The translations under genes were made by a program, and so were the position numbers. Below are positions 27,141 through 56,962 of a DNA stretch of 64,000 nt, one piece after another (the first letter of the stretch is position 1; the number at the start of each line of letters is the position of its first letter). The stretch spans positions 57,846,001-57,910,000 of the forward strand of contig CM060733.1 of assembly GCA_030704615.1 (NCBI GenBank), written 5' to 3'. This DNA comes from Takakia lepidozioides (lineage: Eukaryota; Plantae; Bryophyta). The notes below the pieces were generated by a model. It saw nothing but the letters and a program-made list of their open reading frames with translations. It was not told the DNA's origin and made no database searches.

Positions 27141-28224
27141 GAGTGTTGGGCGGGTATATGAATTACCCTGATATACCCGCCGGGTATATCAGGGTATATT
27201 GATATATATATACCTTGGTGTGGCAAGTTTAGGTACCCGGATGTATACCCTTATATCAGGGTATATTTTTATGATATACCCTTATCCTTATATTTACCCT
27301 GCATCAAGACCCTCAATATACCCTACTTTCCTGAAGGGTATATGTTAAAATGAAGGGTATATCTAATCAGGGTATAAAAGGGCCTTTATGTGCCTTCATA
27401 GCCTTTATGTGCTAGGTCTTTTCTCTTTTTGTTGTGTTGTTAGGGAGCCTTGAGCTATAAGAAAGCTCCAATCACAGTAAAACAAATGTTACATATATAT
27501 CATTCCTTAAATGTCATATAACCCAAACAATACCTCTCTAGATCTCGCATATATATATACATAAAAGGAAACCTGACATCCCACAATTTAGGTCCTTGAG
27601 GGGTTTTTATTTATTTATTTATTTAAGGAAATATGGGAGTGACAGCCCACAATTCAGGCCCTTGAGGAGGGGGAAAGATTAACCCCCTTTCATTTATGGG
27701 CCATGAGACCTACGGGACAATCAACGCCCAGACATACCGTCACACGAACAATCCCACACACAGGGCAGGGCAGTGGGTTCGAACCCCGAACCACCTGAGT
27801 GACACACATTGTGCACTTACCAGCTGAGCTACCAGCCAATGTGCTTTTTTTTAAATCTCAAACCTCCTCCATCTTGCATTGGAAATTAACACCAAAATAT
27901 TATGCAATATCTTATCAATTTTCTCTTTTACCATAGATTGTATTTTTTGTGTTTTGTACATATTGAAGAACATCATATATTCTTTAAAACCATTAAATAT
28001 ATTAATGGAAATAACTATCCATACCCGGAAACTAGGGTATATTTTGGCATATATATCCATACCCGGGGGTTATATAGAAATCTGAAAAGTTAATTTACCC
28101 ATGCCCGGAGGGTAAATAATTTTTTGAGATTTCAATTTATCCATACCCGGAGGGTAAATGATTTGAAAAATAACTTACTTATACCCTAAGGGTATATTGA
28201 AATCAATAGACCCGCACAACACTG
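27141..28224. mobile_element. hAT-type non-autonomous element (1084 bp) containing a SINE
   Basis: Ends (G)AGTGTTGGGCGGGT and ACCCGCACAACACTG; 8-bp TSD GTTCATTC (27133-27140 and 28225-28232); many TACCC/GGGTA subterminal repeats. Confidence 0.9.
27624..27840 (-). mobile_element. tRNA-derived SINE, copy 1
   Basis: Minus strand has an A-box TAGCTCAGCTGG and a B-box GGTTCGAACCC. The body and tail (GGGAGTGAC..CCCTTGA..GGGGAAA..TTAACCCCCTTT) are shared with 32232-32434. Adjacent (TTTA)n tract. Confidence 0.75.
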
Positions 28225-28853
28225 GTTCATTCCTCTTTGGGTAACCACCTGACACATTCCAAAACTGGGCATACTTTCTTGCACCATGGGCGCACTTTGA
28301 GCACCACTATGGGGAACATGCGCCACGAACGGTGCTTCTACCCTACGTGATTTGGATGCAGTATTGTTGGCTCTGGTGACCTTTGGGTTTGGGGTTCAGT
28401 CTTCTGTTTGCCTCCATGACTTATATGGTATGGAGTTTAATCGTCCCCTCCTTTGTAAGAGGTTCCCTCAAAAAATAATGATGATAACTTATCATAGAAA
28501 AAATTCAAAATTTTTATTTTTAAATGGTAATTTGTGGGTTCTCAAGCCTGGGTTGTATTTTCTATGATTTAATTGGTGTACAATTAGTACCCTACAACAG
28601 AAAAAGTTGTGATTTTATTTCAATGGATGAAAATTGGAACCCTATACCATAATACTCTAGCTATCACCATGTATGTATTAACTCGAGTATGGATCTAACT
28701 ACTTGTCAGCTATCAGCCTGATCAATAGCTCCATGCAATGCTCGAGGTTGGCCTGAGTACGAGGAAAGTTGATAGTTGATACCAGCTCTATAAGTGGGTG
28801 ACATCCAACATTCACATGTAGCTTTGAACACTACCAGTTGTAAGGCGGCTTTC

Positions 28854-30763
28854 TATGGAATACCAAATGCTCGACAATTTTACTATCATTTACGACCCTC
28901 GACAAATCATCTACGACCCTCAACAAATCATCTACAACCATCGACAAATCATCTAGGACCCTCGACAAATCAACCACTAGTGGTTGTAGATGATTTGTCC
29001 AGGGTTGATTTTGTGGGCAAATGGTATGCGTTGGAATACCATATGCCCATGTCTTCATCCCACTTGTTCAGCAAATATTCTCTAATAGATTCTTAGATCC
29101 TTCAAATTTATGCTTAGATGCTTTCATCTTTGATTTGTCGAGCATTTGGTACACGAAGGAATACCGTATGACCACGTCCCTCAACAAATCAACTTAGTTG
29201 TTCACACCACTTGTTGACAACATGGGCGTCAACAGCGTAGGTGGCGCCACTAAGGCGCGTCGCCAACAAGGTTTGTGGCGCCAGGTTGTTGGCACAACTT
29301 AGTTCAGATTGGCACAACCTAATTTCTGATAAATACATATATATACGTATACATATACATAGAGGGTTTAGGGTCATTTGCATAATTCAAATATGATGAG
29401 ACCTTGTCTTTAAGAATGTTGGACTATAACGTAATAATTTGATGATATTGAAAGAACAACTAGATCTAATATGTGGACGTATAATCTATAGTGTTCTAGT
29501 TTATTCGTATTACTTAGAATTTTTATATTATGAGATATGCAATAAAATATTGTAAATTAAAAAATCACAAAGGGGTAGAGATTGAATTAAAATATATCCT
29601 ATAACAGCCCTTATTAAATGCATATGAAATATCACAATTCAATGTTCACTCTTACATGTGTTTTCTATTATTATATTGGTCATTTATATGTACAGAGTCT
29701 AATAAGTAGAATATTTTCATTGTCCTGCAATAAGTTATTTTTAATTAAAAATACAAGGATGTGTGAGACCGGATTATAAAAAAATAACAAATTTATTTTA
29801 AAATGCAGATAAGATTTCATAATTTAATATTCACTCGTACACGCACTTGCTATTATTATATAGATCATTTATGTGTATCCCATGAATTCAAGAAGATTAT
29901 GAGTAACCTATGCATAAGATGGATGCATAGGAATTGTGATAAAGAACAATTGGATCTAATAACATGTGTGCACGTATACTCTATAGTTTTCTAGTTTGTT
30001 CGTAATACTTGGAATTTTTGTATTGACAGATATGCAATGAAATATTCTTAACTAAACAAAATTACAAATATGCGACAGATCCAATTAAAATCTATTCTAT
30101 AACAGCCTTCTTAAAAATATCACAATACCCCGTTCATTCTTATTTTTTTTTAAATAAAATTATTTTAAAATACAGATAAAATTTCATAATTTAATATTCA
30201 CTCGTACATGCACTAGCTATTATTATATAGATCATTTATGTGTATCCCATGAATTCAAGAAGATTATGAGTAACCTATGCATACGATGGATGCATAGGAA
30301 TTGTGATAAAGAACATTTGGATCTAATAACATGTGTGGACGTATATTCTATAGTTTTCTAGTTTGTTCATAATACTTGGAATTTTTGTATTGACAGATAT
30401 GCAATGAAATATTTTGTATTAAAAATATGTGACAGATCGAATTAAAATCTATCCTATAACAGCCTTTTTAAATGCATATAAAATATCACAATTCCTTGTT
30501 CATTCTTACATGTACCTTTTATTCTTATATTGATCATTTATGTGTACAAAAAATTTCATTGTCGTACAATAAGTTGTTTTAAATAAAAAAATCACATGGA
30601 TTTGGGAGATCAAATTGAAAAAATGAATAACAAATATCATTTTAATATGCAGATTAGATTTTATAATTCAATATTCAATCTAACATGCACCTCCTATTAT
30701 TATATAGATCATTTATGTGTATCGCATGAACTAAGTGACCTATATAACTGAGTGTTCTGAGTG
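28854..30763 (+). repeat. Left long TIR: short CGACAAATCATCTAC repeats, a GC-rich GGCGCC block, (TA)n with TTTAGGG, and an AT-rich ~350-bp tandem array
   Basis: Direct alignment by eye with the right arm. Repeated units near 29470, 29800, 30170 and 30645. Confidence 0.9.
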
Positions 30764-30828
30764 TTCTGAGTGACCTATACATAGGCTGCACGATTTAGAG
30801 ATGATGTATAGATATATAGTCAATGCAT

Positions 30829-31440
30829 TTATGTACCTAAATACTTATAAATGTTTGAAATATTAACGGGGAGGCCCTGGACTATGAGGATGTCCGGGCA
30901 TAGTTTAGCGGGGCATGTGCAGGACCCGCAAGGTTGACAGATACATGGAAGGAGCCAAATACGTACTGTATGGTCCAGAGACCGACCCTGGTAGGTGCCA
31001 ACGTTGATGAGTGTAAACCATTTGGTTGCACTACATTGTAAGAGAAGTTTGTGGATGTGCCATACGGCGTGATTATGACGAGCGATTCGCAACCCGTGGA
31101 TGACAAGGTGTGGACATTCGCTGAGAATACGAGGCCAGGTATCACGTTTAGCATGAAGGTATGAGCAGAGTGGGCAGTGTGGGGATGGGAATAGGGTTGG
31201 CCAGAAGGTGTGTTTGCATTGATGGCCAATATATTGGGCGTATCTAAATTTGAGTGTTTGCCTTATTTGTGCATCTAAGGCGGCTTTGGAGTTCCAGAAG
31301 TGGTTTGATAATTTATGGTGCAGGACATTTGAAGGGGTCCATTTTTGGGTATGAAGCTTGGTATGGCTGAGAGAGGTTGAGGCTTGTTTTTTGGCTTCTT
31401 TAGTTGTGGTTTTAAGGGATTGGATGAGGTGATAGAGGGT
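30829..31440 (-). mobile_element. Remnant of a restriction-like-endonuclease (RLE) non-LTR retrotransposon, Dualen/R2-type C-terminus
   Basis: One open minus frame reads SNHFWN..LKFRYAQYIG..CPLCSYLHAKRDTWPRILSECPHL..LRIARHNHAV..LCPDILIVQG, i.e. a zinc knuckle, RHN motif and PD motif. Confidence 0.7.
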
Positions 31441-32231
31441 CAGGTACTGGGTAGATCATCCCAAAATGGTGTGCATGACCGACGTGAATGGGGTCGACCA
31501 GTGGTTCAACTGAGGCCCCCAGCTGGGCTAAGAGGGGCACTCGTGTATCAACATGTCATCTATCTCTCTTACCTTTGGGCTTGGGCTCTACCCCTATAAT
31601 GCCTCCAAGGCGAAGAAAGGGGTTTTTTTTTCCCACCTCAAGGGCCAATTGCTTGGGCTGGTGTTTGTTTTGAAACTAAAAAGAAAACCAATAAGAAAAA
31701 AAATGATTGACCTACAAAATCATATTGAAATTGGCACATATGTCAAATTACTAAGTGATAAAAATGTGCCAATATGGCCATGTACCTACATCAAATATGA
31801 TACCACTGTAAGAGTATCAACGTATAAGAGTTTGATATGTTAAACATCTATCAAAACAGACATCCCAACTTCGACATGATACCTTTATAAGAGTATCGAC
31901 AAAATATTATTTTCAATAATTCTCAAGATGGATGGTTGTTATCATTTCATCCAAACCCTTCAAAAACTTCACAGATTTGTGTTCCTAATAATAAATATAT
32001 ATCATGTTCCACATTGAACGACAAAGATTTTTGGGATTTAAAGATTTTTTGTATTGGGCAGCAGTTGTTTTTTTGGGTGGAGGTTAGGTAACAAGATCAT
32101 GTCCAGTTGAAACCATTTTGCATCTGTCTCAGCTTTTGAATCGACTTTTCTGTTAGGGGCCAATGGTTTTTTCAGCTTTGGGCCCATGTCACCCATCTAA
32201 CTTAGGGTAATGTTTTTCTTAGATTATATTT

Positions 32232-32434
32232 AAAGGAAACCTGGGAGTGACTGCTTACATTTCAGACCCTTGAAAAGGGGAAAAATTAACCCCCTTTAAG
32301 ATAAGGCATTGGGCACACTAGGGGGAAACGTCACCCCCAGACCAACCGGTCAGGACCCGCAGGACCAAAGTGGTATGATTTGAACCTTGCAATGGTGACA
32401 CACAGTGCACTTATCCAACCGAGCTACCAACCCT
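32232..32434 (-). mobile_element. tRNA-derived SINE, diverged copy 2
   Basis: Minus strand head GGTAGCTCGGTTGG...GGTTCAAATC; tail homologous to 27624-27690. Confidence 0.7.
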
Positions 32435-32935
32435 AGGTGGGTAACTTATGTGGCTTGTTTTTCTTTTCAAATAAAATACAATGTATGGGATAGACCAAAA
32501 TATGTTGCTGAGGGAAAAATAACCTCACATGACAAGCCATAGAGGCTCAGAAAGGGGACACTGCCTTGGAAAAAATCTAAAAAAAGATCCATCAAAAGAG
32601 AGAGAAATTGTGGCTCGTTTTGATACAACAACTAGAGTGCGCATTATGGCTCATCCGGGGTTTTAATTTTTTTCCCCACAATAACTTATAATAAAGTTCT
32701 CAAGGGCCACTAACCCTAAATAAATAAATAAATAAATATAACTAGATTTGGATTATGAATGTTGTTTACATTATTTCTCTTTTATCTTTGTTTTTCATTG
32801 GTTTAGATTTCAAATTGTTTGGATTTTCATTTGTAATGTTTTCATGAAAAAAATATTGTTGTTTTTTTTAATGCATATTTGTTCCGGCGTTCATAATTAT
32901 TTTTGTCTTTATTTAAAGCATATCTTGCAATTTAA

Positions 32936-35900
32936 CCCTTAAACGCCCAGTACTTATTTTTTACTTTTTCCAAAAACCTGACCCCTGGTGCTAAAAACAG
33001 GTGTAATTTTCGAAAATTTTGGAATTTGAAAATTTTGACCGCACACCAGAAGCGTACCTACCTGCTGCAGGTACATGCCAATTTTGAGGGAAATCAGATG
33101 AAAATCCAGAAAATGCCACCGTTGAGACTGGGGCCCTTTTTTGGGACCCACATACCAAAATTGTAAATTAGAATGAGTAATTTGCAGAAATGGGTGACGG
33201 GATGATTTCCAAATGAGTTGATTCTGCTCCCCATTCATCCTGGTGGGATCTCACATCCATTGCAGAAAACAAAATGCAATTTGGACAAAAAATGGGCTGC
33301 TGACATTTGTTCAAAGCAGAGTGGGTCAAAATTGAGGATTCAGTGTTCTTTGGAAAAATGCCAGTGCTACCTGTACCCTAGAGTGTTTGCTGCAGCAAGC
33401 GCTTTGCAAAGCAAGATATCCCACCACCCCACTCCTACCCTCCTCACACCAAGGAACAATGTGTGAGTAGGGTTTGAACCCACTAAGCTGCCCCAACTAG
33501 CAGCTCACACATGAACACAAGGGGGAGGATCCCCCCCTTGTGTGCACCCCCACTTGGCAAGGGGACTAACCACTAAAGCAATCTACCACCTCTTCGCAGC
33601 CATGAACTCACAATGCCATGAATTCTAGCCATGAATTCCAACTGACATTGTCTCAAACCAGGCTCTGATGTTTCACAAAGCAGGTCCCCAAACAGATGCT
33701 AACATCTCCACACAAGGCACAAAAAAACCTTTGTCGGGCACCACACTCGACACACTTCCTTCTCCTAGCACTTTTTTGGGAGAAGTGAAGTGCTCCCGGG
33801 TTTGGAACAGAAGCCCCTTCCAAGACAGTTCTCATGGGAGCAACCCACCCGACAATCAACCCATTGGCCACTTGAATGTTGAAGAGCATATGAGACCGCG
33901 GCTTCCTGTCCTTCTCTTTCATCCAAGCCAGATACAACAAATAAGAATTCACCAGCGATGTGTCAATGCTATGAAAGAACAAGCGGTGCCACCACTTGTG
34001 ATCACGCGTTTGCACACTGTAGTAGCCCCTCAATTGATCCTGCACAACAACCCCCCTCATGTGTTCTTGATAGTGCTTCACAATGGGGGAAGTAGGGACC
34101 ATGCGGCGAACACCGTTGTGCCACCGCTCAATGAAGCAATCTGCCCCCACAGGGCTACAAGCAGTGCTCAACAATGTGACTGGCTTGTTGTCAAACCAAG
34201 ACAGTGCCACCAATTTGTTAGATCTATGCATGCGGTACTGCATAGTGCCTCTCTCTCCTCTCTTTCCAAAATCAAGACATGAAGGGAATCCCACCCGAGT
34301 TGTCTTCACAATACTAGTAGCATAGATATTCTGGACAGCCAAGTCAAAGAAAAGAATAGGACTAGTAAAGAAATTATCCATGGTCACTATGTGCCCTTTC
34401 CCCTCAAAACCAGCCAGCAGTCTGGTTACAACAAAATATCCCTGCCCGTGTGTCAAATCAATTGCATCATCACGGCCAAGGTACACCTCCATCTTGTGAA
34501 CATATCGGCTTTTGGCACCAGCCAAGCACCACCACTTTATACCCCATTTTCACTGGTTTTTTGCTCATATACTGCTGCAGGTTAGAGTACTTACCTTTGT
34601 ACTTCACCATCATCTCATCCACACACAGGTTTTGATCGGGTTGCCAGTAGCGAGCATACAAGTCATTTTGCTGGTCTAACAACCAACGGGTCTTTGCGAT
34701 TTTATCATAAGCAGGGGCTGATTTATCCACCTCCACTAACCGGTTGTCCACTAGGTGCAAACACCTCAAAATTGCTTCCCATCTATTGCGACTCATGATG
34801 CGCATAACGGAAGGACACTTGAAGAACTCATTGTTACCTTTCCAGTAACATCTTGTGTTGGGCAATCTCTTGATTCCCATGAGAATATGAACTCCCAACC
34901 ACGCCTTCAATTCCACAACACTCACAGGATACCACCACTCTCCCCCCTTCATTTTCCCCCTTCTATATAAGGTATGGGCATACAGGTTTGTCATTCTGCA
35001 GATTTTCCGCATCACAGGTGCCGGCCAGAACAAATTGAAAAAATCTACAGGGAGAGCACTATCATCCAAAGGCACCTTATGACCCGTCTCCCCCCCACTC
35101 CACGTTACCTGAGGCAGCTCTGTGCACTGTGAATTCCACATGTCATCTACGAATTTATCTTTCGGTGGCCATTCACGCCAAGATTCAGCCAAATCATAAA
35201 GCCCAAGCTCATGGGCCGCATTTCCAGTGTCCACACACTAATCCCACAAGTCTGGATCCTGACCAGCATCTGGATTACCTCTCTCTTCCTCTACCGGATC
35301 ATAGTCAGAGTCCGAGTCACATTCTGTCTCAGATTCAGACCCTACCGTGTTCTCAACAACATCATCCAAACCAAGCATGGCACTTACTGTAACTGGCATA
35401 GGCTCGTCAAGGTCCACAGGAAGGCAAACATGAGAGGGCACAGTATGCACCCCAAGCCCAGCAAAGAAGGAGACAACATATGTATCAGACGCACTCACAA
35501 TGTCCCACGACTTGTCCACGACAGTACCATAACCAAATTCTTGGACGTTGGAAGAAGAAGCCATGTTAGGCAGGTACAAATGGTTCATTGCAACCTTTAC
35601 AGTGGATCCCAGCACCCCTAGATCTTCCCAAGATTGGCTATGACCTGCAACTTCTCTAGCAACTTGAGAACTACGCAGAGAATATGCAAGACCCGAATCA
35701 AAACCAGAAATTGAACTCGCAATGTCATCAAGTCTCACATGCCCATAATCGTTCTTACCTCTGGATCTTGCTACTGCCTTCAGCCTCATCGTTGGTGGCA
35801 GATGAGGATCCATCAAAATCAGGCCACACAGATAGCCTCAAACACTCATTTACCTCAGGAGAAAAGCCATGTGGATCACCTTCCTCTTTACGATCAACCC

Positions 35901-36760
35901 ACCCGAGAATCTCCGCAGCCTGACGACGAAATAGGTACCGAAAATTGGCTGGTTTTGGAAATGCGGGCCACTTCACCCGCTTGGGCCTCTTCAAGCACAT
36001 AAGATAATCCTCATTCAAACACCCAATCAATTGGGCGACTTGCTCTGGAGAGGCGCCCAAAGCGCGAGCCCAATTGCCAATAACAAGAGACTCTTCTAGC
36101 AAATGCGCAGGAGCTGCTGGAGGCATGTCTGCAGAACCCATGTTTCCTCTCCTATATAGTCACCAGTAACGGGCCTTCTTTCTCCTTCAATGACAATAGG
36201 GAATCTTGGCAACTTGTCTCCCTAAGTTCCTCTGCCTGCAAGCCTACAGGAATGAAGCAAAACCTTCAATGCAAGAAGAAGCTCGCATCTACAACATACA
36301 TGAAGAAACAAAGCTTGATGACAGGCAATAGAAGAGGGGTGTCATACCAGCCGCAATGAGCCAACAACGCCTTGAATGCTAAGAGCTTCCTAATGCAGCG
36401 ACAGCGGGAGCTTCAGTTATAGAAGGAGACAAGAGCAAGGAAACGCAACGGCAACCTGCAAGGAATCCAAACGGCCACCTACAAGCACCCTCCAACTCGC
36501 GCGAGGAACTCAGAAAGCGCGGGACCCAGAGCACAGTGTTTGGGAGAGAGAAGCAAAATGGCGGGAGCTGACCCCCCGCCACTCTCGCAGCAATTCCGGA
36601 ACCCTAACCTTGATCAGGGAAAATCGCCCAACGGTTCAGATTAGCCCAGGTGGTTGGGCATAACATATCCAAAACTCAAAAAAAATGGCTAAGATCCTGT
36701 GAAGTCATTGCAAATTTCCTGATTTCAAAGGCCCAAAACGGGCTACTGGGCGTTTAAGGG
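32936..36760 (-). mobile_element. piggyBac DNA transposon (3825 bp), full length but inactivated
   Basis: TTAA TSD at 32932-32935 and 36761-36764; perfect 17-bp TIRs CCCTTAAACGCCCAGTA / TACTGGGCGTTTAAGGG; encodes a piggyBac transposase. Confidence 0.96.
33653..35816 (-). pseudogene. piggyBac (DDE_Tnp_1_7) transposase, disrupted
   Basis: Motifs PVDFFNLFW, TNLYA, ELKAWLG, MSRNRWEAILRCLH, CVDEMMV, KPVKMGYK, MDNFFTS, WFDNKPV and KWWHRLFF, plus a C-terminal Cys-rich CVEC..CALC..C..C. Lesions: premature stop near 35238, +1 frameshift near 34530, and third catalytic Asp changed to Val (MRGVVVQDQ). Confidence 0.92.
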
Positions 36761-36929
36761 TTAAAGTGTTGCACATGCCCAGATTTTCGAGGTTTACTGT
36801 GGACATTAACATTTTGATATAATTCAGGATAACGACCATATATCCGAAGATACATTCTTGAAAAAACATTGTGCAGAGATTACTTCCAGCTGATTAAACT
36901 CATACAACATAGTCTTGCAGGGCCTGAAA

Positions 36930-37953
36930 CTGGTATATTCACCATATATGTGGTGGTACATGTCCCAGTAGAGCATTGCCAGGCCAAGTATTTTCCACTC
37001 ATGGATATGAATTATGTCTGGTTGGGTTCTTGTGATCTGTGTGTATAAGAAGAACGATAAAAGTGGGGTGATCTAGATGGGTTAGTGGTCTCAAATGAAC
37101 AAAGTTCCTAAGGTTGAATGTTTGGGCCTCTGGACTGCAACAATATCAAACTAGCCACACTTTTGTCTGAACAATCTTTACACTATCTAGTATCTAGCTT
37201 TGTAGAAAGCATGAATTCTATTTCTGACCTAATTGTAATATGATCGATTTCACAAGGGGCTGATGGAGCATACATGTCAAGTTATCAAATTGTGAAGGGC
37301 AACAGCTCAGACCTGCATCCATTCAAGGCTGGCACGGCTGAAAAACAAATATGCTTGGAGGTCATCATAAGACCCTCCATAGATTTGTGACCCCTTCAAA
37401 AATTGGTTGTTTGGCTCCAAATAGAATGGGTACTCCCAAGACCTTACCACGATAAATGTGAATGGGCACCCAATTCTCCCCTATGATATGATGAATATGA
37501 GACGGCAAGAACAAGGCCCTCGATCTCATCCTTAGGTATCTTCTCATAGAAAGGTAGCATCACCTCCACTTTATGTCCCCTTTCAAGTCATGCCCAAGCA
37601 GGACCAGTTAGTACATCCCCTAAACCCCCCACTTTGGCCAAGGGGGCCATCTCTGATGTCATGTGTATTATGTATGCCAGATCCTTATCCAGACATATGC
37701 CCTTTGATGAGCTCATGCTAACTGCAATTGCCTTTGAATCACCTTGTTTTGGGTTATTTTGTTTCCAAAAAGGAATTTCATCATCAGGAGATGGCCACAC
37801 AATGTTTGCGATTGTGGGAAGAGGCCTGACAGGCCCTGGCTGCAAGAAACTTCTTGTATTGTGATTTGGCTGTGAGCCTCCTCCTCTTGTTGCGATCTCT
37901 TCACAAATCTCAAGCATCACGGGAGAAACATCAAGTTTGCACAAACAGGGCAC
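36930..37953 (-). pseudogene. Captured starch synthase (GT5; SS4/SS6-like) gene fragment with its intron
   Basis: NIVWPSPDDEIPFWK..IIHMTSEMAPLAKVGGLGDVLTG..*LERGHKVEVMLPFYE..EPNNQFLKGSQIYGGSYDDLQAYLFFSRASLEWMQ, then an intron, then ITRTQPDII..HEW..LAMLYWDMYHH. KVGGL is the ADP-glucose-binding motif. Stops and frameshifts present. Confidence 0.85.
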
Positions 37954-38225
37954 ATTCTAGCTAAGAGCACTTGGCAGGTATTCAATAACTGATACTTAAC
38001 TTACCCAGGGCAGATATATGGATACTCATTATTAGACCCAATTTAACAAATCCAAAATGTGCATGTACTCTTGTTGAACGCAGTAGGTATCCTGGTAAGT
38101 TTCATTTGATTATTGCATATGTGTTGGAACACCTTTCCAGTGAGTGAGAGCCTAGGAAACTGTGAACTCACCTTAAGAAAAAATAGAACGAAATAGCCAC
38201 ATCAAATGTAAGGAAAAGCTTTCAA

Positions 38226-38345
38226 ATATATATATATATATATGTGTATTTATCAGAAATTAGGTTGTGCCAATCTGAACTAAGTTGTGCCAACAACCTG
38301 GCGCCGCCTCCCTTAGTGGCGCCACCAACCTTGTTGGTGCCCCGT
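38226..38345 (+). repeat. Internal third copy of a TIR sub-block
   Basis: (TA)n-TGTATTTATCAGAAATTAGGTTGTGCCAATCTGAACTAAGTTGTGCCAACAACCTGGCGCC matches 43990-44071 (direct) and 29240-29340 (inverted). Confidence 0.9.
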
Positions 38346-39979
38346 GCCTAAGATATTATGGTTTATTGTTAAGGTGCTGTGCAGGTTGAAGGGTTGATCT
38401 GGAGCTTCATGATAGGTGAAGAACCTATCTTGAATTCGAGGAAAAAACAACAGCTGTTAGTCCAAGAATCCGGAAGATGGCTAGGTTTGAAGAACCTGTC
38501 CCTATATTTTTACTTCACATCTCGGAGCATACAGGTATAGCCCTCACCAACAGTAGTGTGGTCAAACAGCAGTTTCAAAACTCACTGCTTTTCTGTTGAT
38601 GAATCATGCATTTTGCTCTAAAGCCTGTGTGTACAGAAAGAGACCAAAAATGCACGATTCATCAAAGTGATAGTAGTGTGCGCGGCCACCAGTCTTGCAA
38701 AGTACAACCTTTTTGTACTATCTGATTCACAAAACTCCGCTGGTTGCCTGCCGACAAACTGCTCCCTTCCAGGGAACTTCTACCAGCACCACTCGGGATG
38801 CCCCAATCCGTGAAACTCCCTTCCTCGATGCCTTTGTAGAAGCGCAGTGCACATGGTCGGCTGATATAAGTAGCTTCTCCCCAACGGCTTCAGAAAAGAC
38901 CACCAAATCAAGGACCCAACGCTGATTCATGGCATCTCTGCCACTAATTGAAGACATCTCTGCTGTTCAGGTCCGTGCTTAGAAAATAATGCAGTATAAA
39001 CAACAAATGACACATGATGATGGAGGACCCACCATTGAATGAAGGCATCTTTGCAGTTGGCCATGTCTCTTCTCCAAAAAACATGCAGTATAAAAAAAAG
39101 TGTACATGGCACACGATAATAAAGGTGCTTTGGATGTTTTTTGGCGCATGATGTGCGCAAGATGATGTTTGTGCGGTGGATGATGTCGATGGATGATTGA
39201 TGATGTCGGTCGATGATTCATGATGTCGGTTGATGGATGATGGATGGATGGATGGTTCATGGATGATCTCAGATGATCATCATGATGTCGGTGCGTTGTA
39301 TGATGCACATGCGCTGGATGAAAAACGTTGACAGTTAGGGTTTTTACAATGTACATGTACCCCCCAATATTATGTAGATCATTTATAAGTATATCATATA
39401 ACCAATAAGACCTTATATATAACCTCAGATAGCATAGGTTGTCAGAGTTGTAGACGTTGTATACATGTATCATTAATATACAATAGATAATGGTAGCAAT
39501 CATCGGTACCCTTGTTGCTTTGCCCATTCACATTGGTCGGATCACATACCTGGCATCTTGGAGGTATGCCTGGCATGTTAGTTTTTCTCCTCTGGATGAT
39601 ATATCTCACCTTGCTTGATCCATACATTCTTGTGTTTGAGGCATCTACATATTGAGCTACAAAGAAGTCATGATATTGACCATTCTTTATAATCATTGCC
39701 TTCTTGAGTGTCACTAGTGGCAGAGGAATCATGACAGTCTATTGGTATGTTGAGATTAGTGATGGTGGTTACACTAGTATCACATTTGCAGCTCCCCTCT
39801 CAAGAAATATTACAATTTGAACTACTTTGACGGTCACACTTTCTGCAATTAAATATACCTCTTATGCTCTGGAGCAAGAAGAGTGAATCCCAACCTCACC
39901 AATAGGAGATTGCAGTCACAATTATGGCAGTTTAATAGAAAAAATGTTGCACAATTAGGACGGATTGTATCATGTGGGA

Positions 39980-40620
39980 TCAATGGCCATAAGGCTACTG
40001 CATGTACCGATGTGTGAAGAATTTCATCTACAAATGGACTTCACCAGATAGTAACATGTTAAGCGGTAAACCACTGATGGTACGCAGGAAGGAAGGAAGA
40101 TGACGTGCTGGATGGTATGATAAAGGATGGTCTGCATTAGTTTGGCATGAGAGTCTGTTCTGATTGTTGGATTTTGTAGTAGTTATCCATGGAAATTTTT
40201 CTCCAATCTGTTTCTGGCAAAGCAGACAAATGGAAGGGGAAATTGAGAGCAAATAATGAGGAGATGGGTTTCCGAGAGATGTAACATTGTAGAGTAGGGG
40301 CATCTTTGGAATAGGATGACAATGAGCTCAGGGCAATGCATGCAGGCCGTATGGAAGTTCCTTTAATGGAAGGAAGCTGATTGATTCACGGTATCTTATA
40401 GTTGCTGGAAGCATCTCATTCAATACTGTCTGAGACTGTCTTGCAAAGTTCTACAAACATAGTCATTGTGAAGGTATCTATGGATTTACTTGCAGTTTTT
40501 CCAAGATGCAAGTGCCTTGATGGGTGGTTGGTTGTTTTGTTTAGTGTTGGTACAGACTTGATGGTTGTTTTCATAGACTCTATGAAAACCATGGGGAGAA
40601 AATGAAATCATTTTTTAATG
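39980..40620 (-). mobile_element. Highly decayed LINE C-terminal remnant
   Basis: Minus frame LQCYISRKPISSLFALNFPFHLSALPETDWRK..TLMPN*C loosely resembles LINE C-termini. A GTAGCC-TTAT-GGCCAT hairpin lies at 39984-39999. Confidence 0.4.
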
Positions 40621-42547
40621 TTCGCCCACGAGTGTGTAGGGAATGCTGATTATTCCAAACTAGTAAATGGAACAAGTCTTTACACTGAATGGAAGTGCAT
40701 TGGAGCCTTTTTGGAAAAGTCGGATTGTATTATGTCATATTTTTCTTACAGGTAGAATAAGATATTCATTATGCCCGGTGGAAGCTGGAAGCTGGGTCTG
40801 TGGTCTAGAGAAAGTTTCAAATGAGATTTTGCGTCTAAATAAGACTAAGAGGGACAGATCAGGTTTTCAATTTGTAGACCTTGAATCATATCTGCTATGC
40901 GTCGCCATCTTAGCACCATTCATCCCCTCGTAAGTTGGCACATGTATGTTTTGCGAAATGTCCTCTTTAGTGCACATTACTGTTGCATTTGTAGTTGAAA
41001 AATATTGTTGTCTGCCTGAATGTGGTGCTCTGGTATTAAACGATGTGTAGACAAAAAATGCGAGATATCAACACACAACAATCTCTCAAGTGCCTCCAAC
41101 TTGAACTTGGGGATCCAGTCCTGACTAGTGTATTTGAGTAATTTGGCAGGTAATTTGAAGTGAAACGAGTAGTTTCACTCTATCATGGGCTCGTGAAGTT
41201 TATATAAGGATCGCCAATGCGGTAATCAGACATAGAGAGGGTGTCTGCAGCCCGAGCCACGGCCTTCTTCTTGCTTTCCAACCAAGAAGCTGATGTACTA
41301 TACTTGCATGTGTTCTTTGAAAAACATTCTCTGCTCACCAGGATTCCGGTATTCATCTGTCAGAGCGGATCCCATGAAGTATTGTTTGTCAACAGATATG
41401 GATTTGCCACATGACCTTTGGTTAATGTCACTAAGGCATTCTCAAGCTTCTTGCATTACATGTCAAGGTCTGCAGAACAAACAGACCTGAAGCAGGGTCC
41501 ATGGAGGGTCTAAAAAAGTCCTAGAGAACGATGACCTTGCCAGAATATTAGAAGATGTTGCAGGACCCAAAGGTGGAGGATGCAGCTCAGATATTGAAAG
41601 CATTGGCTGTGCATCGTGGGGACCGGGTGCGTATCATAATGGAGTTGCTAGAGTGTGGGATGAGACCCAAACTGGGGGGGATCGAGTTTATCTACCCTGT
41701 TCAAATCCACTACAAGATGCTATCTCGGAGGTTGGATTCACTCATTTCCTCTTTTTCAGTTTGTTACAGCTTCAGTTAAAGAAAACGAGTGGTGGAATCT
41801 TTGAGTCATAAGAATCTTCTATGTTTCCCACAATATGTCTCTCACTTCCACATCTTAAACCAGGTGTTTGTCTACCACCACAATGCTAATGCAAAGTACA
41901 CTTTTACCACTCTCTGCTGTGTCCCTTGGCCATTCTATAGATGTGATTATGTCGAAGATGTAGTACTTCAAAGGTTTTTGAATCGGGGAATGTCTGGAAA
42001 CTTTTTTTGGGTCGTCTGGGCATGGAGTGGATATGATGAACTTTTTCCCTTGTCTGATGCCTTCTTGACTTGTCTCTTGCAGTTGTACTTTATTTCAATT
42101 TCAGATTTTTCATATGACAAATTCTGAAACACTGCAGTAAATGAAGCTTTGATCACAATCTTGAAAGGGAATTTTACAGCATATGGCCCATTGTCTCATT
42201 TTTCTGCGCCTGAGTATGGTGGGCTTAAATGCCAAACACAGTCACCTGACTTCCAATCTGTCTCTACTGGACCGAGCAGTCTGCAATGGCTGGGTCTGAG
42301 GAACTGGAAATGCGTGGGCCGGGACGTCTGTGCATTGCACCATTCAAAATCCTGCTGCAGAAAGAGCATCCGCCTCATTCTGAGAGAGGTTGCAACCCGG
42401 TGCAACAGGCCACACGCCTGGAGGCTCCGGCATTCCCTGAATCCCGTAATTGGGCTTGCCAAATACATAGGTCATTATGTCGTGCCTACAGAACCAAAAC
42501 GTCTGCGTTGTGGCTTCAGTGGCAGATGTTTGACTCCCATATTTTCT

Positions 42548-43959
42548 CACTCAGAACACTAAGTTGTATAGGTCACTTAGTTCATGCGATATACATACAT
42601 GATCTATATAATAATAGGAGTGCATGTTAGATTGAATATTGAATTATAAAATCTAATCTGCATATTAAAATGATATTTGTTATTCATTTTTTCAATTTGA
42701 TCTCCCAAATCCATGTGATTTTTTATTTAAAACAACTTATTGCACGACAATGAAAAATTTTGTACACATAAATGATCAATATAAGAATAAAAGGTACATG
42801 TAAGAATGAACAGGGAATTGTGATATTTTATATGCATTTTAAAAGGCTGTTATAGGATAGATTTTAATTCGATCTGTCACATATTTTTAATAATTTTTAA
42901 TACAAAATATTTCATTGCATATCTGTCAATACAAAAATTCCAAGTATTACGAACAAACTAGAAAACTATAGAATATACGTCCACACATGTTATTAGATCC
43001 AAATGTTCTTTATCACAATTCCTATGCATCCATCCTAAGCATAGGTTACTCATAATCTTCTTGAATTCATGGGATACACATAAATGATCTATATAATAAT
43101 AGCTAGTGCATGTACGAGTGAATATTAAATTATGAAATCTTATCTGTATTTTAAAATAAATTTTAAATTTTAAAATAAGAATAAACGGGAAATTGTGATA
43201 TTTTTAAGAAGGCTGTTATAGAATAGATTTTAATTGGATCTGTCACATATTTGTAATTTTGGTTAGTTAAGAATATTTCATTGCATATCTGTCAATACAA
43301 AAATTCCAAGTATTACGAACAAACTAGAAAACTATAGAGTATACGTGCACACATGTTATTAGATCCAATTGTTCTTTATCACAATTCCTATGCATCCATC
43401 CTATGCATAGGTTACTCATAATCTTCTTGAATTCATGGGATACACATAAATGATCTATATAATAATAGCAAGTGCGTGTACGAGTGAATATTAAATTATG
43501 AAATCTTATCTGCATTTTAAAATATTTTTTTATTTTTTTATAATCCGGTCTCATACATCCTTGTATTTTTAATTAAAAATAACTTTATTGCAGGACAATG
43601 AAAATATTCTACTTATGAGACTCTGTACATATAAATGACCAATATAATAATAGAAAACACATGTAAGAGTGATCATTGAATTGTGATATTTCATATGCAT
43701 TTAATAAGGCTGTTATAGGATATATTTTAATTCAATCTCTACCCCTTTGTGATTTTTTAATTCACAATATTTTATTGCATATCTCATAATATAAAAATTC
43801 TAAGTAATACGAATAAACTAGAACACTATAGATTATACGTCCACATATTAGATCTAGTTGTTCTTTCAATATCATCAAATTATTACGTTATAGTCCAACA
43901 TTCTTAAAGACAAGGTCTCATCATATTTGAATTATGCAAATGACCCTAAACCCTCTATG

Positions 43960-43992
<33 letters not shown>

Positions 43993-44452
43993 ATTTATCA
44001 GAAATTAGGTTGTGCCAATCTGAACTAAGTTGTGCCAACAACCTGGCGCCGCCTCCATTGGTGGCGCCACCTACGCTTTTGACGCCCATGTTGTCAACAG
44101 GTGGTGTGAACAACTAAGTTGATTTGTCGAGGGACGTGGTCATACGGTATTCCTTCGTGTACCAAATGCTCGACAAATCAAAGATGAAAGCATCTAAGCA
44201 TAAATTTGAAGGATCTAAGAATCTATTAGAGAATATTTGCTGAACAAGTGGGATGAAAACATGGGCATTTGGTATTCCAACGCATACCGTTTGCCCACAA
44301 AATCAACCATGGACAAATCATCTACAACCACTAGTGGTTGATTTGTCGAGGGTCCTAGATGATTTGTCGATGGTTGTAGATGATTTGTTGAGGGTCGTAG
44401 ATGTCGAGGGTTGTAGATGATAGTAAAATTGTCGAACATTTGGTATTCCATA
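42548..44452 (-). repeat. Right long TIR of the giant element
   Basis: Reverse complement of 28854-30763. Confidence 0.9.
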
Positions 44453-47400
44453 GCTTTCTGCCATAACCAATAACCACGTTGGATTATAACAAATGCATGG
44501 AATTCATGCCCTGCCTTGTTGTATTAGTAATTGGTTGTAAAGTGATCCCAAATTCTACACACTAATCTAGGTGGCACCTTTTAATGTATAGGAAGTTTCG
44601 TGCTGGATGAAACCCTAAATTTGTTACTGAAAAACATATCTTGACCACATGCACCAACTTGACCGGATGAACTACATCCTATTTACACATTTCATCTATG
44701 TATGGATGGAATATTTCATCTACCCATGTCTTAATTGATTGTGTGAATTTTAGAATCAGTAACACCCTCCAAAAAACGTTTAGTCGTCCTGGACTCTCTT
44801 CATAGTTCTGCATTTGTACTTTACGAATGGAAACTATTTGTGGTCAGCACGGGAATGTGAATGAAAACCGAGAACTTCATCCACAGACTTCATCTTCATC
44901 TGCAGATTTCATCCACATACTTCATCCAATACCTGTCCATCATTGAATGGCTCCCTGAAAATTTCTTCAACCTGGAGACTCCTGAACTCTTTGCCTAAGG
45001 CAGCGGCAACAAAGCCTCCACAAGCAACCCTTAGAAAAAAAAATCCATAACAAACTTCCCTCTTCAAATCTATTTGGTTTTTGGAATTAGGTCTTTTCAA
45101 TAACAAGTTTGGAGATCTCAGTTGTGCTCAGCTGCACCCAAGCCAACCAAAGTTCCAAGAAAATAATAATAATAATATAAGTAGAGGCCACCCCCCAAAG
45201 GCGCAGTAGCCACAAGGCGAAGTGGCTCTTAGTTACGCTGGCTTCGACCGAAGTCTTCTCTCTCTAATAATATATGACGCCTCCCCAAGGAAGTGTAAAA
45301 TATCGTCACGTGTCTCTTCACCCCCAAAGAACTACTGCTTTCCAGCAGGAAGGTGGACACCTTTGTGACATCAATTGGTGGATTGACCCCGCAACCACTT
45401 CCGATGTGATATGTGCCCCACTCGGCTACAACTTGGTTGTTGACAGGAATCACACATAATGTTATGTGGCTACGGAAAAGGCTTCAAAGGGGGCAGTACC
45501 CGCAACGGGAAGAGGCTCTTATTTACCCTAGCTTCGGTTGGCGTCATATATATGTATATATATATATGGCAACTCCACAGAGGTCTTATCTATATAAGCA
45601 GGGCCTTATCAAATTAGTAGTATCCTGATGAGGTTGTGTCATGTATATGAAGGATCCAGAAGCAGTTTTCATCCACACATCTCTTCACACCCAACGAATA
45701 TCCTTCCATGCAAGATACCAGGCCCCATTTTCATCCATCCATTTCCACCACCTAACCACGTTCATCCGACATACCTGTACACAGTACACACAGCTGTCGC
45801 AGCCCGCCCAATTAGTGACTAGTAAGATCGCATTAGTAAGTCACCAGGGATTCGATCTGCTCACCCCATAACGGACTCGCTTATCTTATCGCCTAATCAT
45901 GCGCTTAACACCATTCGCTACCCATATACCATACGAAATACAGTACGACACTCTACCATTCTTTACCTAGGGTACTTTCCAGCAGTAATCTAGCGCGCCC
46001 GTCTTTCCTTTTTAAGACAATTTCATTCCACTAGTAAGTAAATAGTCAGTGTAAGTAGTAAGTGGTGAGTGTCGAGTGTACGAGACCGTACAGAGCCGTA
46101 TATCCGCGTTACACGTGCTCAGCAAACAAGGTGCATGCTGGATCGGTCGCAGCTCGCCACGTGGCCACCAACCGATATTCTGTGTACCCTAGGACGAGTA
46201 CGGTGTGAAAACGGATTGGGCTTCATTATATCCTCCACTACTCCCCCACCTTGTATTCCTACCTGTATTCTACCTGTATCGGGATTCGAGCCTGGTACCT
46301 CAGCTGCAGAAGTACCACCCCGGTGATCCTGGGCTCAAATCCTGCTACCCACTTGTCTGTGTATGGCACTTACTACATTTCCCCCTTCTCTACCCGCCGT
46401 GGGGCCCTCACCGTTGCTAAGAAAAAAGAAAAAAGAAAAGAACTGGACAGCCTAGTGACTCGGCCTGTGAGTTTTTTTTTTTTTTTTCCCTTAAAACGTA
46501 AAGGAAACCCTAATATAATTTCTCTAAAAAGAATATAATTCAGCATACAGTAGTTACTGCAAAAGTACAGGAGAGGGAGAGTAGAGAGTACAGGCAAAGT
46601 GGGTGCTTTAAAAATGGACAGAAATAGGCGATATGGGACAATGATCATGATTTGTAACCGCCATCGCCAAAATCAGCATCGTTGATATGAATGATGACCA
46701 AAATCCCGGAGCAATGAATGGCCCACCCACACCCCTCTCCACTCATCACTCGCCTTCTCGCTACTCACTACTCACTACTCACCACTCACTACTGAGGTGA
46801 CTAGAGAGAGTAGTGACTAGTAAGTAACGAGCGAGCAGTGGGTAGGGCGGGGGAGGCGCCGCAAAAGCGATGAATGATGTGCATCCACAGACGTGGGCCC
46901 AGTCCTGTCTGCCCGCGCGGACGACATTCATCCGAGGAGAGGCGGGAGTAAAGATGCGGGATTATTAGGGGGAAGGGGTTGTGAGGCGGTTAGACGACGT
47001 GGCAGGCTAATGGAGTGATTAGTCGGTCACTAAATTTCGTTACGGACGCCCGCACGCGCGGGGTTGGCTGCCACGCGTGGGGACGGCCGTTATAACATGG
47101 CTATCGCCGGGGTTTCGCCGGATCGATCCCGGAAGTAGCCGTCGGTCTGGTTGTTGGCTAAACTCAATCCTGTGGGTTGCATTAACGGCGAGCGAGTAAG
47201 TGGGTAACTATCTGAGGGGTTAATTAAAGTGGGTGGGGATGAAAAGTGGATGGGGAGGGGATGAATGGCTGGATGGTGGCCCGGTTGTTTGGCGGGTGGG
47301 CGGGCGGGTACAAGCGGGTGGTGGGGAAGGACGGTCACGCGCTGCAATGAGCTCGGGCGCGGCCTACCGACTTCCGTCTGCTCGCGATCTGTGGCGAGGG

Positions 47401-48253
47401 CTGGATTTCTGACACATGATTTGGCAGTCCTGGTTTGGGGTGGCAAGTACTGAGGGGAAGGGTGTGGACGATATGTGGATCTTGTTGTTGAAGATGGCTG
47501 GCGGGGGAGATGGTCCGCGCTAAGTTATCATCAGTCTGTTTGGTACCAGCCTGACTGATCAAACCTCTGCCTTTATTTGGAGGCCTGTCAAGCGTTGATC
47601 GGTGATTGGGAGGGAGAGAGAAAGAATGATATAAGGCTCGAGGCTTGCTGCTGAGAGCTGTTCTAGTTGTCTACACGAACTAGGATGGTTCTTTCGTTGT
47701 AGGGGAGACCTATGTGTGCGAGAGAGAGAGAGAGGGAGAGATTAGAGTTGGGAGCACATGGCATGCAATCCTCACATTACTGAAGGGGGATCCGGGTCAA
47801 AGATTATCACGACTGTGAAAATGAAGTAGCGGAGATGAGCTCTAGCGGGCGTTGTCAACAAGTCTCGTACAACTAGATCAAGATATCTAGAAGCCGATCG
47901 CTTGATTTGATCCGAGAGTCCTCTTTCTGAGAATAGGGAGCCCGGCTCTTTGCGTGAACTTGTACCGTCACAGTTCTCCACAGTACGCAGGGCGAGAAGT
48001 GCAAGACAGGGTGAAGGCTAGGAGTGCTCTTGAAAGGCTCTATCTTAAGAGTCTAGTTGTGCAGGTAGTTGAAGCCAGAAATTAGGACGACGAGTTCGTG
48101 TATCTGACTTTCGTGTCCAGACACGGCCGAATGCAATCCGAAACGTAGATCTGATAGAACTAAGATCATGTAAGAGTCTTACAAGCGCTTGTCTTGTGAC
48201 AGTCAAGACTGGCCTAAACGCGGGGCAGTAATCACAGACAGAAAGGATCATCC

Positions 48254-50600
48254 ATGGGCGATCATCAGGCTTCAGATCAAGGAGACAAGAGCTCCAGAAA
48301 ATGCACAGTGCGTGGATGCATCAAGTCGACATCAGGACCCTGGATAGTCCGGCGGCCATCTGCCAAGGGCCAGGTTGCCGCCGCTGCGGTGTTAAGAATG
48401 CCATCAGCACGCGAACGAGAGAACAACAAAGGGAGGGAAAGAAGGCGGCGCGCAATCGCAGCCAAAATCTTTTCAGGTCTGCGCGCCCACGGGAATTACT
48501 GCCTTCCTAAGCATGCCGACCACAATGAAGTCCTCAAGGCCCTTTGTGCGGAGGCTGGGTGGCAAGTAGAGGAAGACGGCACCATTTTTCGCAGGGTAAG
48601 TTCCTCTCACGGTGCCTTGCTTTAGCAAACTTTCATCATTCAGTGGTCTAGCTGATCGATTGCGGTTAGTAGTATGTCTTGACCTGATTCAGTCAAGATT
48701 GTGTGAATTAGAATAAGTTGTACAAGCCACAGATACCTTCGTGCATGCAAGTATTGAGGAACATAGCTCTTTGGAATGTTCTAGAAGTATCAATCCTGTA
48801 TTTGTTGGAATAATTTCATCTCTAATCTCAAATCTCCTTACGGTGGAATGAATTTTGTTTGATGGACAATGCGGGAGATCGACATTTGATGCATTCGTAC
48901 TCTGATCAGACGATGTTAAAAGGAGTCTTGTTGTAAAGTCAAGTTAGTATTCAAGAATAAATTAAGAAGGTTTCTAGATCTAGAGTTCATGCGATCGAGC
49001 TCTAGAGATGGAGTACTGCGTTCAGTGAGATCACAAAGTGGATCATTTTGGATGTTCGTGCACGAGTTTTTCAACTGGTCCTGTGTCTTCTTTGGTCTGT
49101 AAGAAATGAACTTACTTTCTTAGCGATATATCCTACTGTGAGAGTTGCATTGCAAAATTAGCTACAGATTAATCTGAGCTTCGGTGTTCGTCACCACGCC
49201 CCCGTTTCTCGTATCCCACCTTCTGCTCAGGACTCTCGTTTCTTTGTCAAATTATTTTTGCAGGTCTCCCAGCAAGTAGTGCCAAGGAAAGCTTGCAGCA
49301 TGGATAAACAATTTTCAGCTCATGAGGGGACACCAGTATATGAGAAATCTTCGAAGTCAGACACCAGCCCATCCACATCATGCAGCCAGGCTGGTCCACC
49401 TGTAAGCAAGGATCTGGCGTGCTCCGCTAGGAGCAGCGGTAATCAGCCTAGCAAGGGTGGATCGTTTCTGGAAGAATCCGACTCCTTAAATCAGCCAGAT
49501 CTGGCAGTGCGGCCTGACCCTAGAGACCAGCATTTCTATGAAGGAGGTTCGAGAAATATGTCGGAGTACCAGTTTCTGGCTTACAAGTTCTTGCCGACTA
49601 ACGCAGGTGGATCCATCAAAATGGGTATGGGTTTGCATCTAGGAAATTCTCTCCAGAAAACCCTGAGCCCTGATGCTGAGGTTCCATCACTGATTCCCAA
49701 AACATTGCTGGGAAGCGGAGTCATGGTGAAGAGTGACTGGGAATTTCTACCTTCTCCTTCATGCGCTGATAGGACAAAGAAGGCTGCGCCAGGCTCTATT
49801 ACCTCTTCGCAATCTTTTGAATCAGAGGCAATCACAGGTAACAGTTTCACAAGCTACCTAGGATTCTAGAAATTTAGATTAGAGTCTCAGACTGGACATC
49901 CACTCAGTCAGATTTGTTTCAGATTGGTTGGATCACGATCTCATTTCCGTACATATCAAACTTGCAGTTCGTCTGCGGAATCTAGTTATTTCTCTGTAGA
50001 GCACAGACACCAATTTATTACGACTCGTACAACTGACGTGCAGTTTAGAGGTTACTCACACCGGTCGGTACTTAATGTGCAGATATAGCTTGCACCGAAC
50101 GAGAAGTACATCAAGGGAACACAAACGTGCTTCAAGATACAAACAGCGCTAGTATTCACGACCTCGGCTATGCCCAAGGCTCCAGTCAGCATGGAGCTCC
50201 CTTCACGTCTAAAAGATTCAGCACTCCAAGAGTGCAGTCAACTCGATTTTGCGCCCCAGACACAGAACTGGAAAGCTATGGTATTTATCACGAGGAAGAT
50301 GGATCAACCATAACAGAGCGGAGATGTTCTGCACAGGTGCTTTTTGAGCAAGATTTTGATAAATTACCCGACGATGTTCTTTTCTTGGGTGCAGGACCAG
50401 CTTCCTGTACAAGAAGCTCAACCAAAAGGAGCACTAGATCACCGGTGCTGACATTGAAATCCCCCCTACATCATGGCGGCATGAGCATGGGCCACCAGCA
50501 TCACATGAAGGAATTCTCCGATGGCTTGACCTTGACCCTCTGCACTTCGACCCTTCAAGCCAAACACAATTACGACCAAAGGCCTCTTTCTATCATGTGA
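48254..50600 (+). CDS. BES1/BZR1-family transcription factor, 3 exons, about 477 aa
   Basis: Exons 48254-48595, 49264-49837 and 50083-50600 are phase-consistent. BES1_N domain [63 protein letters not shown]; C-terminal EAR-like DGLTLTL. Confidence 0.92.
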
Positions 50601-56584: not shown

Positions 56585-56962
56585 CTAGGGTAGTCTGTGT
56601 CGTTGGCCCAAGTGTCCCAAGTGCAATCCCCGTATCCAAGTGGGTCTCCTAGGCCCATGAATGAAGAATCTTTTTTTTTTCCATGAATTTATTCAGTAGT
56701 ACTATATCCAATCATTGCTACAGGAAAAGCCCACTTTGCTAATTTTCACAAATTTCCAGCGACCAAAAGTACTTGAAATTCCATATCTTCCACACCGTAG
56801 ATCCAAAAATCATGAGACTAGCCGGTGCACCCCTCTCTCATCGAGGGTTTTCCAACAATACCAAGCACCAGAGCTGGGGCCTTGCGGTTTGGGAGATCTC
56901 AACATTACAAAACAAACAAACAAACAAACAAAACTAACTAACTAAATTACTTTATATATTGA
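56585..56962 (-). mobile_element. Non-autonomous Helitron (378 bp), canonical orientation of ends
   Basis: Minus strand reads A|TCAATATATAAAG...GGGCCAACGACACAGACTACCCTAG|T: 5' TC, 3' CTAG, inserted between A and T, no TSD. Homologous to 59854-60711. Confidence 0.8.

What the first reader, a model, noticed from the sequence alone, without database searches (positions are those of the whole stretch)
28848..44458. Unclassified 15.6-kb cargo-carrying element with ~1.9-kb TIRs and a 6-bp (or 4-bp) TSD
Seen: near-identical 1.9-kb inverted arms ending TATGGAATAC/GTATTCCATA, flanked by GCTTTC. The alternative reading is termini CTATGG/CCATAG with TSD CTTT. Known: plant TIR superfamilies give TSDs of 2 (Tc1/mariner), 3 (CACTA, PIF), 8 (hAT) or 9-11 bp (Mutator). 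Kilobase TIRs with a 6-bp TSD characterise Polinton/Maverick, but their AG...CT ends, pPolB and integrase are absent here. The interior is a mosaic of decayed, older-looking pieces (RLE-LINE, SINE, starch synthase exons, unknown gene), while the arms and TSD look young, implying the mosaic moved as one unit. Inference: a Pack-type or foldback giant transposon of a possibly undescribed family that shuffles host gene fragments. A composite of two inverted ~1.9-kb units is also possible.
Basis: partly seen in the sequence, partly recalled or inferred. Interest (0 to 1): 0.85.

Follow-up and report, generated by a model that had tools for sequence, protein, structure and literature searches.

The report
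Long-armed GingerRoot-type transposon with cargo
This 15.6-kb stretch of plant DNA has mirror-image 1.9-kb arms and a 6-base insertion footprint; it is likely an enzyme-less, long-armed version of the GingerRoot/IS3EU jumping genes already known to carry gene scraps in a clubmoss, and it also contains a broken piggyBac transposon, a kind I found no report of from land plants.

Summary
Observation confirmed: arms 28854-30763 and 42548-44452 are 97.8% alike over ungapped columns, end TATGG..CCATA and are flanked by GCTTTC. In three runs of one sample, 5, 7 and 8 contigs with unlike flanks join the arm exactly at 28854, which favours the 6-bp reading; the inner arm sits at about 13-15 times single-copy depth. 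No integrase-type transposase was found inside, and no genome was held, so membership rests on ends and TSD. What differs is arm length (1.9 kb against 100-150 bp). Whether all the cargo moved as one unit is untested. The scan noted long-armed and oversized IS3EU-type elements before in other genomes. Verdict: new variant of a known kind.

The parts
28848..28853 (.). Left target-site duplication GCTTTC
28854..30763 (+). Left arm (1910 bp), starts TATGGAATACC
   Evidence: terminus fixed by loose ends at 28854
28854..29260 (+). Outer core of the arm: three GGAATACCnwATG motifs, seven TCGACAAATCA-like motifs in both directions, 21-bp tandem x4.2; likely transposase-binding array (inferred)
   Evidence: 6 and 13 matches in the window, all in the arms; shuffles 0.56 and 1.32; highest summed contig depth
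29450..30763 (+). AT-rich extension (23-30% GC) of degenerate ~185/366-bp tandem units
   Evidence: single contigs in its first 650 bp at about 13-15x flank depth
30829..31455 (-). 3' fragment of a LINE ORF (zinc knuckle and PD..-type motifs; RLE class by recalled motif only)
   Evidence: no Pfam or PDB match
32205..32443 (-). SINE-like piece with a sister copy at about 27603-27850
   Evidence: tRNA origin is recalled from box motifs, ARAGORN and Rfam found nothing
32932..36764 (-). Nested piggyBac: TTAA on both sides, perfect 17-bp TIR CCC..GGG, transposase broken by a stop and frameshifts, third catalytic Asp absent
   Evidence: PF13843 E 2e-36 and 4e-34; piggyBat transposase E 4.8e-10; alignment
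36765..37960 (-). Decayed starch synthase gene fragment with a GT..AG intron (37037-37312): DNA-level capture
38226..38342 (.). Internal 117-bp piece of the arm (92% to 43971-44087)
39347..39425 (+). Diverged (71-74%) copy of the arm's AT-rich unit
39500..42547 (.). Unidentified decayed DNA; one sub-threshold Slo-like RCK match at 41190-41291 (+)
   Evidence: E 4.2e-4, 20.4 bits, cut-off 24; no support
42548..44452 (-). Right arm (1905 bp), ends GGTATTCCATA
44453..44458 (.). Right target-site duplication GCTTTC

Best explanation
The 15,599 bases between TATGG and CCATA, flanked by a 6-base duplication and lacking any detectable integrase-type gene of their own, are likely a non-autonomous IS3EU/GingerRoot DNA transposon that would be moved by a transposase made by another copy. 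That enzyme likely binds the motif arrays in the outer ~400 bp of each arm, cuts at the TA ends and inserts with a 6-base stagger, giving GCTTTC twice (inferred from the family). The starch synthase fragment was taken up as DNA, since it keeps an intron (shown); gap repair after excision is the likely route (inferred). A subfamily of about 13-15 near-identical arms extends the core with 1.3-1.5 kb of AT-rich tandem repeat, likely by copying one end onto the other (inferred). The piggyBac, SINE and LINE piece are nested insertions of unknown order relative to the last jump.
For: Ends and TSD. Boundary at 28854 in 5/7/8 contigs, flank agreement 0.53/0.45/0.43; depth step from 60.8/37.2/40 in the flank to 5400/3001/3614 at the first arm bin. 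IS3EU: TA..TA ends, usually 6-bp TSD, one lineage with GingerRoot at 99% bootstrap (PMC10045372); TAYGG..CCRTA (PMC12730594); 15 of 15 IS3EU rows seen in its Table S1 begin TAYGGA, as this element does (15 of 27 rows seen). GingerRoot: 72 of 77 TA..TA, 6-bp TSD, 3.9-12.9 kb, 22 of 77 with exon-plus-intron fragments, only 6 of those 22 with a DDE motif, present in mosses (PMC6839031). Element minus piggyBac = 11,770 bp.
Against: No transposase links this family to IS3EU: Pfam over six frames and sub-pieces of the interior found no integrase domain and six short DDE-type motifs found none in the element; whether Pfam would detect a decayed GingerRoot DDE was not tested. Arms are over ten times the 100-150 bp described. 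The first 11 bases differ from the 15 fungal IS3EU ends by 3 or more bases, so Repbase's 11-base rule is not met against those. TSD length was measured at this one copy only. Runs X1-X3 are one sample and may be the assembly's source.
Confidence: 0.8

Rival explanations
1. The ends belong to another or undescribed transposase family that happens to use TA ends and a 6-base stagger (for example a plant hAT6-like lineage, or a new superfamily).
For: No cognate transposase seen; hAT6 makes 6-bp TSDs; arm length is atypical; 11-base terminal rule not met against fungal IS3EU rows.
Against: Six-base TAYGGA start shared with 15 of 15 IS3EU rows seen; hAT6 sits among animal hATs; Lanisha, CACTA-type groups and Kyakuja have CA..TG ends and 2-5 or 7-bp TSDs; Polinton has AG ends.
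Confidence: 0.1
2. The locus was built in place: a smaller long-armed element inserted here and the gene fragments and nested elements accumulated afterwards, or two same-family copies were nested or joined, so that the 15.6-kb mosaic never jumped as such.
For: piggyBac has its own TSD; SINE has a flank sister; arm relics lie inside at 38226-38342 and 39347-39425; contigs show an arm start following another arm's position 29256 (table 5c), which suggests self-nesting in the family. Interior copy number was not measured.
Against: One 6-bp duplication brackets the whole; no inner TAYGGA/TCCRTA termini near the inner arm ends and no inner pair with a TSD; host gene fragments cannot insert by themselves. 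This rival concerns history and is compatible with the IS3EU class.
Confidence: 0.07
3. Assembly artefact (mis-joined inverted repeat).
For: Only the left junction was laid, and the contig there has 28 arm bases, under the tool's 31-base bridging rule.
Against: Arms differ at 42 sites and 11 gaps, so they are not one sequence written twice; a clean TSD brackets them; the junction contig 28269-28881 has no differences in three runs.
Confidence: 0.03

Closest known systems
GingerRoot of Selaginella lepidophylla and mosses (Cerbin et al. 2019, PMC6839031; parts 1-5 of 7 of the text and part 1 of 2 of the one held supplement read)
   Same: TA..TA ends, 6-bp TSD, multi-kb size (11.8 kb without the piggyBac against 3.9-12.9 kb), gene fragments with introns, loss of the DDE gene in cargo carriers, non-seed-plant host (host class here from earlier scan notes and a BES1 gene, not tested further).
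   Different: Arms 1.9 kb against 100-150 bp; 15.6 kb in all; about 4 kb from genes on both sides; no transposase to compare.
IS3EU superfamily (Repbase; PMC10045372 passages, PMC12730594 passages and 15 Table S1 rows)
   Same: TAYGG..CCRTA ends, TAYGGA start, 6-bp TSD; one lineage with GingerRoot.
   Different: No DDE or second ORF found; identity with the fungal ends stops after 6-7 bases.
Pack-MULEs and Foldback-type long-TIR elements (Pack-MULE from PMC6839031; Foldback/Galileo recalled)
   Same: Gene-fragment cargo; long arms built from tandem repeats.
piggyBac superfamily (for the nested 3.8-kb element; PMC5381638 passages)
   Same: TTAA TSD, CCC..GGG TIR, DDE_Tnp_1_7 transposase with C-terminal cysteine cluster.
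   Different: [quoted passage not shown]

Membership tests
IS3EU/GingerRoot | Termini TA..TA (TAYGG..CCRTA) | tested here: met
   TATGG..CCATA; boundary at 28854
IS3EU/GingerRoot | 6-bp TSD | tested here: met
   GCTTTC on both sides; one copy only
IS3EU/GingerRoot | Terminal inverted repeats over 30 bp | tested here: met
   1.9-kb arms; far longer than the 100-150 bp of clubmoss GingerRoot
IS3EU/GingerRoot | Integrase-like DDE transposase in the family's autonomous copies | not testable with these tools
   No genome held; none in this copy; metagenome and viral scans gave no related copy
IS3EU/GingerRoot | Repbase rule for non-autonomous elements: same TSD length and first 11 bases within 1 mismatch of a known member | tested here: inconclusive
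   3 or more mismatches to 15 fungal rows; plant GingerRoot ends were not held as text
Polinton/Maverick | AG ends, pPolB and integrase | tested here: not met
   TA ends; no such Pfam domains
MULE/Pack-MULE/Foldback | 9-11-bp TSD | tested here: not met
   Only 6-bp (or 4-bp) duplications fit the ends; lengths 2-12 tested
CACTA/Lanisha (CMCT clade) | CA..TG ends, 2-5-bp TSD | tested here: not met
hAT6 | hAT transposase with 6-bp TSD | not testable with these tools
   TSD length fits; no hAT domain in this copy; autonomous partner unknown
piggyBac (nested element) | TTAA TSD and CC..GG TIR | tested here: met
piggyBac (nested element) | DDE_Tnp_1_7 transposase | tested here: met
   broken in this copy

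The most novel reading that the evidence does not exclude
A plant IS3EU/GingerRoot subfamily of about seven recent copies uses 1.9-kb foldback arms to carry 12-16-kb mosaics as whole units, and in doing so has spread a native land-plant piggyBac lineage, a superfamily reported absent from plants; the arm-borne AT-rich array would be a functional part of the end (a transposase-loading or chromatin element), not decoration.
Probability: 0.2. Interest if true: 0.55.

Novelty: new variant of a known kind. Interest (0 to 1): 0.33.

Why it matters
It removes a claimed new family by tying it to a little-known superfamily, and extends that superfamily's anatomy in plants from 100-150-bp to 1.9-kb arms. 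It is a further case of gene-fragment carriage outside Pack-MULEs. The nested piggyBac may matter more than its host: a native plant piggyBac lineage, if intact copies exist in this genome, would fill a stated gap in the superfamily's range and would be a candidate plant-adapted TTAA vector.

Tried and rejected
No whole genome was held, so ends could not be paired. Homology searches on the right interior found nothing: one minus frame against 1.84 billion representatives, 0 hits; a second minus frame, 0 of 3782 candidates; a plus frame, 0 of 448 candidates; PDB nothing below E 0.6. The weak Slo-like RCK match is therefore only a lead. The third plus frame (41552-42562, two stops in about 337 codons) was scanned against Pfam and PDB only. 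Exact terminal 24-mer in metagenomes: 0. A relaxed gapped pattern gave 3 metagenome loci and 1 viral locus, all chance matches with no BLASTN similarity to the element. An HGAID string in the left flank looked like a GingerRoot motif but had no Pfam support and no companion motifs: rejected as chance. Two other TAYGG/CCRTA pairs with 6-bp repeats in the window (2 besides this one among 2910 pairs, 0.7 expected) have no matching arms: rejected. Rfam: only two sub-threshold matches. No RNA holder was listed, which says nothing on expression. Run X5 (another study) holds arm-like contigs but no cover of the left flank; a part without cover is no evidence of an empty site. Literature searches for long-armed IS3EU (3, 1 and 1 papers, listings only) and for plant piggyBac (listings; PMC10619864 and bioRxiv 10.1101/2021.09.26.461848 passages) found no description; Repbase itself could not be searched, and GingerRoot supplementary tables S1-S3 were not held, which may bear on TIR lengths and ends.
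Full report
Check of the observation. The element runs from 28854 to 44452 (15,599 bp). The left arm 28854-30763 aligns to the reverse complement of 42548-44452 with 1839 matches, 42 mismatches and 53 gap columns. GCTTTC stands on both sides.

Which reading is right. Logan contigs of four public runs were laid on 28200-30100 (X1-X3 are one sample that may be the assembly's source, X5 is another study). Flank depth is 60.8, 37.2 and 40; summed depth rises to 5400, 3001 and 3614 in the first arm bin. In X1, X2 and X3, 5, 7 and 8 contigs join the arm exactly at 28854 from unlike flanks (agreement 0.53, 0.45, 0.43), and their consensus ends in G, not C. The terminus is therefore TATGG and the duplication here is 6 bp. 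Limits: 202 loose-end rows were not shown, ends could not be paired, and TSDs of other copies were not measured. A contig covering 28269-28881 matches the window without a difference, but its 28 arm bases fall short of the tool's 31-base bridging rule. The interior and right junction were not examined with reads.

Anatomy of the arms. The outer ~400 bp hold three GGAATACCnwATG motifs and seven TCGACAAATCA-like motifs per left arm; in the whole window these motifs occur 6 and 13 times, all inside the arms, against 0.56 and 1.32 expected. Summed depth is highest here, which suggests tens of related ends (the tool warns that summed depth is no copy number). Inward follow GC-rich GGCGCC repeats, a (TA)n run and about 1.3 kb of AT-rich, degenerate 185/366-bp units. 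Single contigs across 29277-29835 have depths of 795, 515, 500, 545, 619 and 588, that is 13-15.5 times the flank, with 1-3 differences: the long arm is a trait of a subfamily of roughly 13-15 arms, not a one-off. No inner termini were found near the inner arm ends, so the arms are not self-contained solo units.

The interior. From left to right: a LINE 3' ORF (30829-31455; Atlas neighbours are zf-RVT and RT clusters, best score 0.90; the RLE label rests on recalled motifs); a SINE-like piece with a sister copy in the left flank; a complete piggyBac at 32936-36760 between two TTAA, with a perfect 17-bp TIR, PF13843 matches at E 2e-36 and 4e-34, 20 relatives among 313 candidates at up to 55% identity, a match to piggyBat transposase at E 4.8e-10 and a missing third catalytic aspartate where the 6 of 7 aligned relatives shown with GVD, and one with GID, keep it; a decayed starch synthase fragment (PF08323 E 2.3e-10; Arabidopsis SS4 E 9e-4) that keeps a GT..AG intron at 37037-37312; two relics of arm sequence; and 3 kb that stays unidentified. 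Without it and one TTAA the element is 11,770 bp. No integrase-type domain was found in any frame.

How it likely works. Shown: ends, TSD, multi-copy arms, intron-bearing cargo, absence of a detectable cognate transposase. Inferred: a transposase from an autonomous relative binds the outer motif arrays, cuts at the TA ends and inserts with a 6-base stagger; cargo is taken up during repair of an excision gap; the arms lengthened by copying one end to the other. Untested: that everything inside moved together. The piggyBac has its own TSD and the SINE has a flank sister, so they inserted by their own means at an unknown time. Contigs also show a TATGG start directly after arm position 29256 plus 22 bases (depth 226, 69, 81), a hint that the family nests in itself or forms tandems.

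Comparison with what is known. PMC10045372 (passages): complete IS3EU families always have TA..TA ends, TSDs usually 6 bp, and IS3EU and GingerRoot form one lineage (99% bootstrap). PMC12730594 (passages; 15 of 27 IS3EU rows of Table S1): ends TAYGG..CCRTA, 6-bp TSD; all 15 rows begin TAYGGA, like this element, though the first 11 bases differ by 3 or more, so Repbase's rule for non-autonomous elements (PMC4455052 passages) is not met against these fungal rows. PMC6839031 (parts 1-5 of 7; supplement part 1 of 2): 77 intact GingerRoots in Selaginella lepidophylla, 72 with TA..TA ends, 6-bp TSD, TIRs of 100-150 bp, 3,931-12,903 bp; 22 carry gene fragments with exons and introns and only 6 of these keep a DDE motif; related DDE reads occur in 18 moss species. 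This element works like a cargo-bearing GingerRoot and meets the end and TSD criteria; the transposase criterion could not be tested. Polinton, MULE and CACTA/Lanisha fail on ends or TSD (PMC8245031 passages, name Lanisha without structure). The host is likely a moss according to earlier scan notes on this genome (unchecked); the window itself shows plant genes (eIF3d, BES1, exostosin).

Novelty. What remains is arm length. Three searches (listings only) showed no paper on long-armed IS3EU elements, but Repbase could not be searched, and earlier unreviewed notes of this scan report foldback elements with IS3EU-type ends and a 21.7-kb plant IS3EU in other genomes; my IS3EU reading was written down before I saw them. 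The nested piggyBac is the more unexpected item: PMC5381638 (passages) says the superfamily was documented in eukaryotes except plants, and four searches showed no bryophyte report; its family was not characterised here. Verdict: real, new variant of a known kind, interest 0.33.

Noticed in passing
window 32932-36764: Complete TTAA-flanked piggyBac with a broken transposase on a land-plant chromosome; a 2017 survey lists plants as lacking piggyBac. Closest relatives are unnamed proteins on short metagenome contigs (49-55% identity).
   Followed up: partly
window 29256 / 28853 (table 5c): Contigs in three runs read arm sequence to 29256, 22 other bases, then restart at 28853: a hint of self-nesting or tandem copies of the outer 400-bp core.
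   Followed up: no
window 38226-38342 and 39150-39500: Arm relics inside the element; the first is preceded by another GCTTTC and a (TA)n run, the second by GATGATGTCG repeats that resemble the arm motif. Possibly remains of older family copies.
   Followed up: partly
   Followed up: partly
window 28200-28345: A separate multi-copy repeat ends at 28345 (12 contigs with unlike continuations in each of three runs).
   Followed up: no
window 2955-3970 and 8293-9297: 1-kb direct repeat (96%) 5.3 kb apart around armadillo-repeat exons, next to a LINE RT ORF at 9336-10319.
   Followed up: no
window 56584-56962 and 59799-60711: Diverged inverted repeats (about 78%) and 71/97-bp tandem arrays around a 2OG-Fe(II) dioxygenase gene.
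   Followed up: no
window 17481-25080 and 48218-49869: The element lies between an eIF3 subunit D gene and a BES1/BZR1 gene, roughly 4 kb from each.
   Followed up: partly
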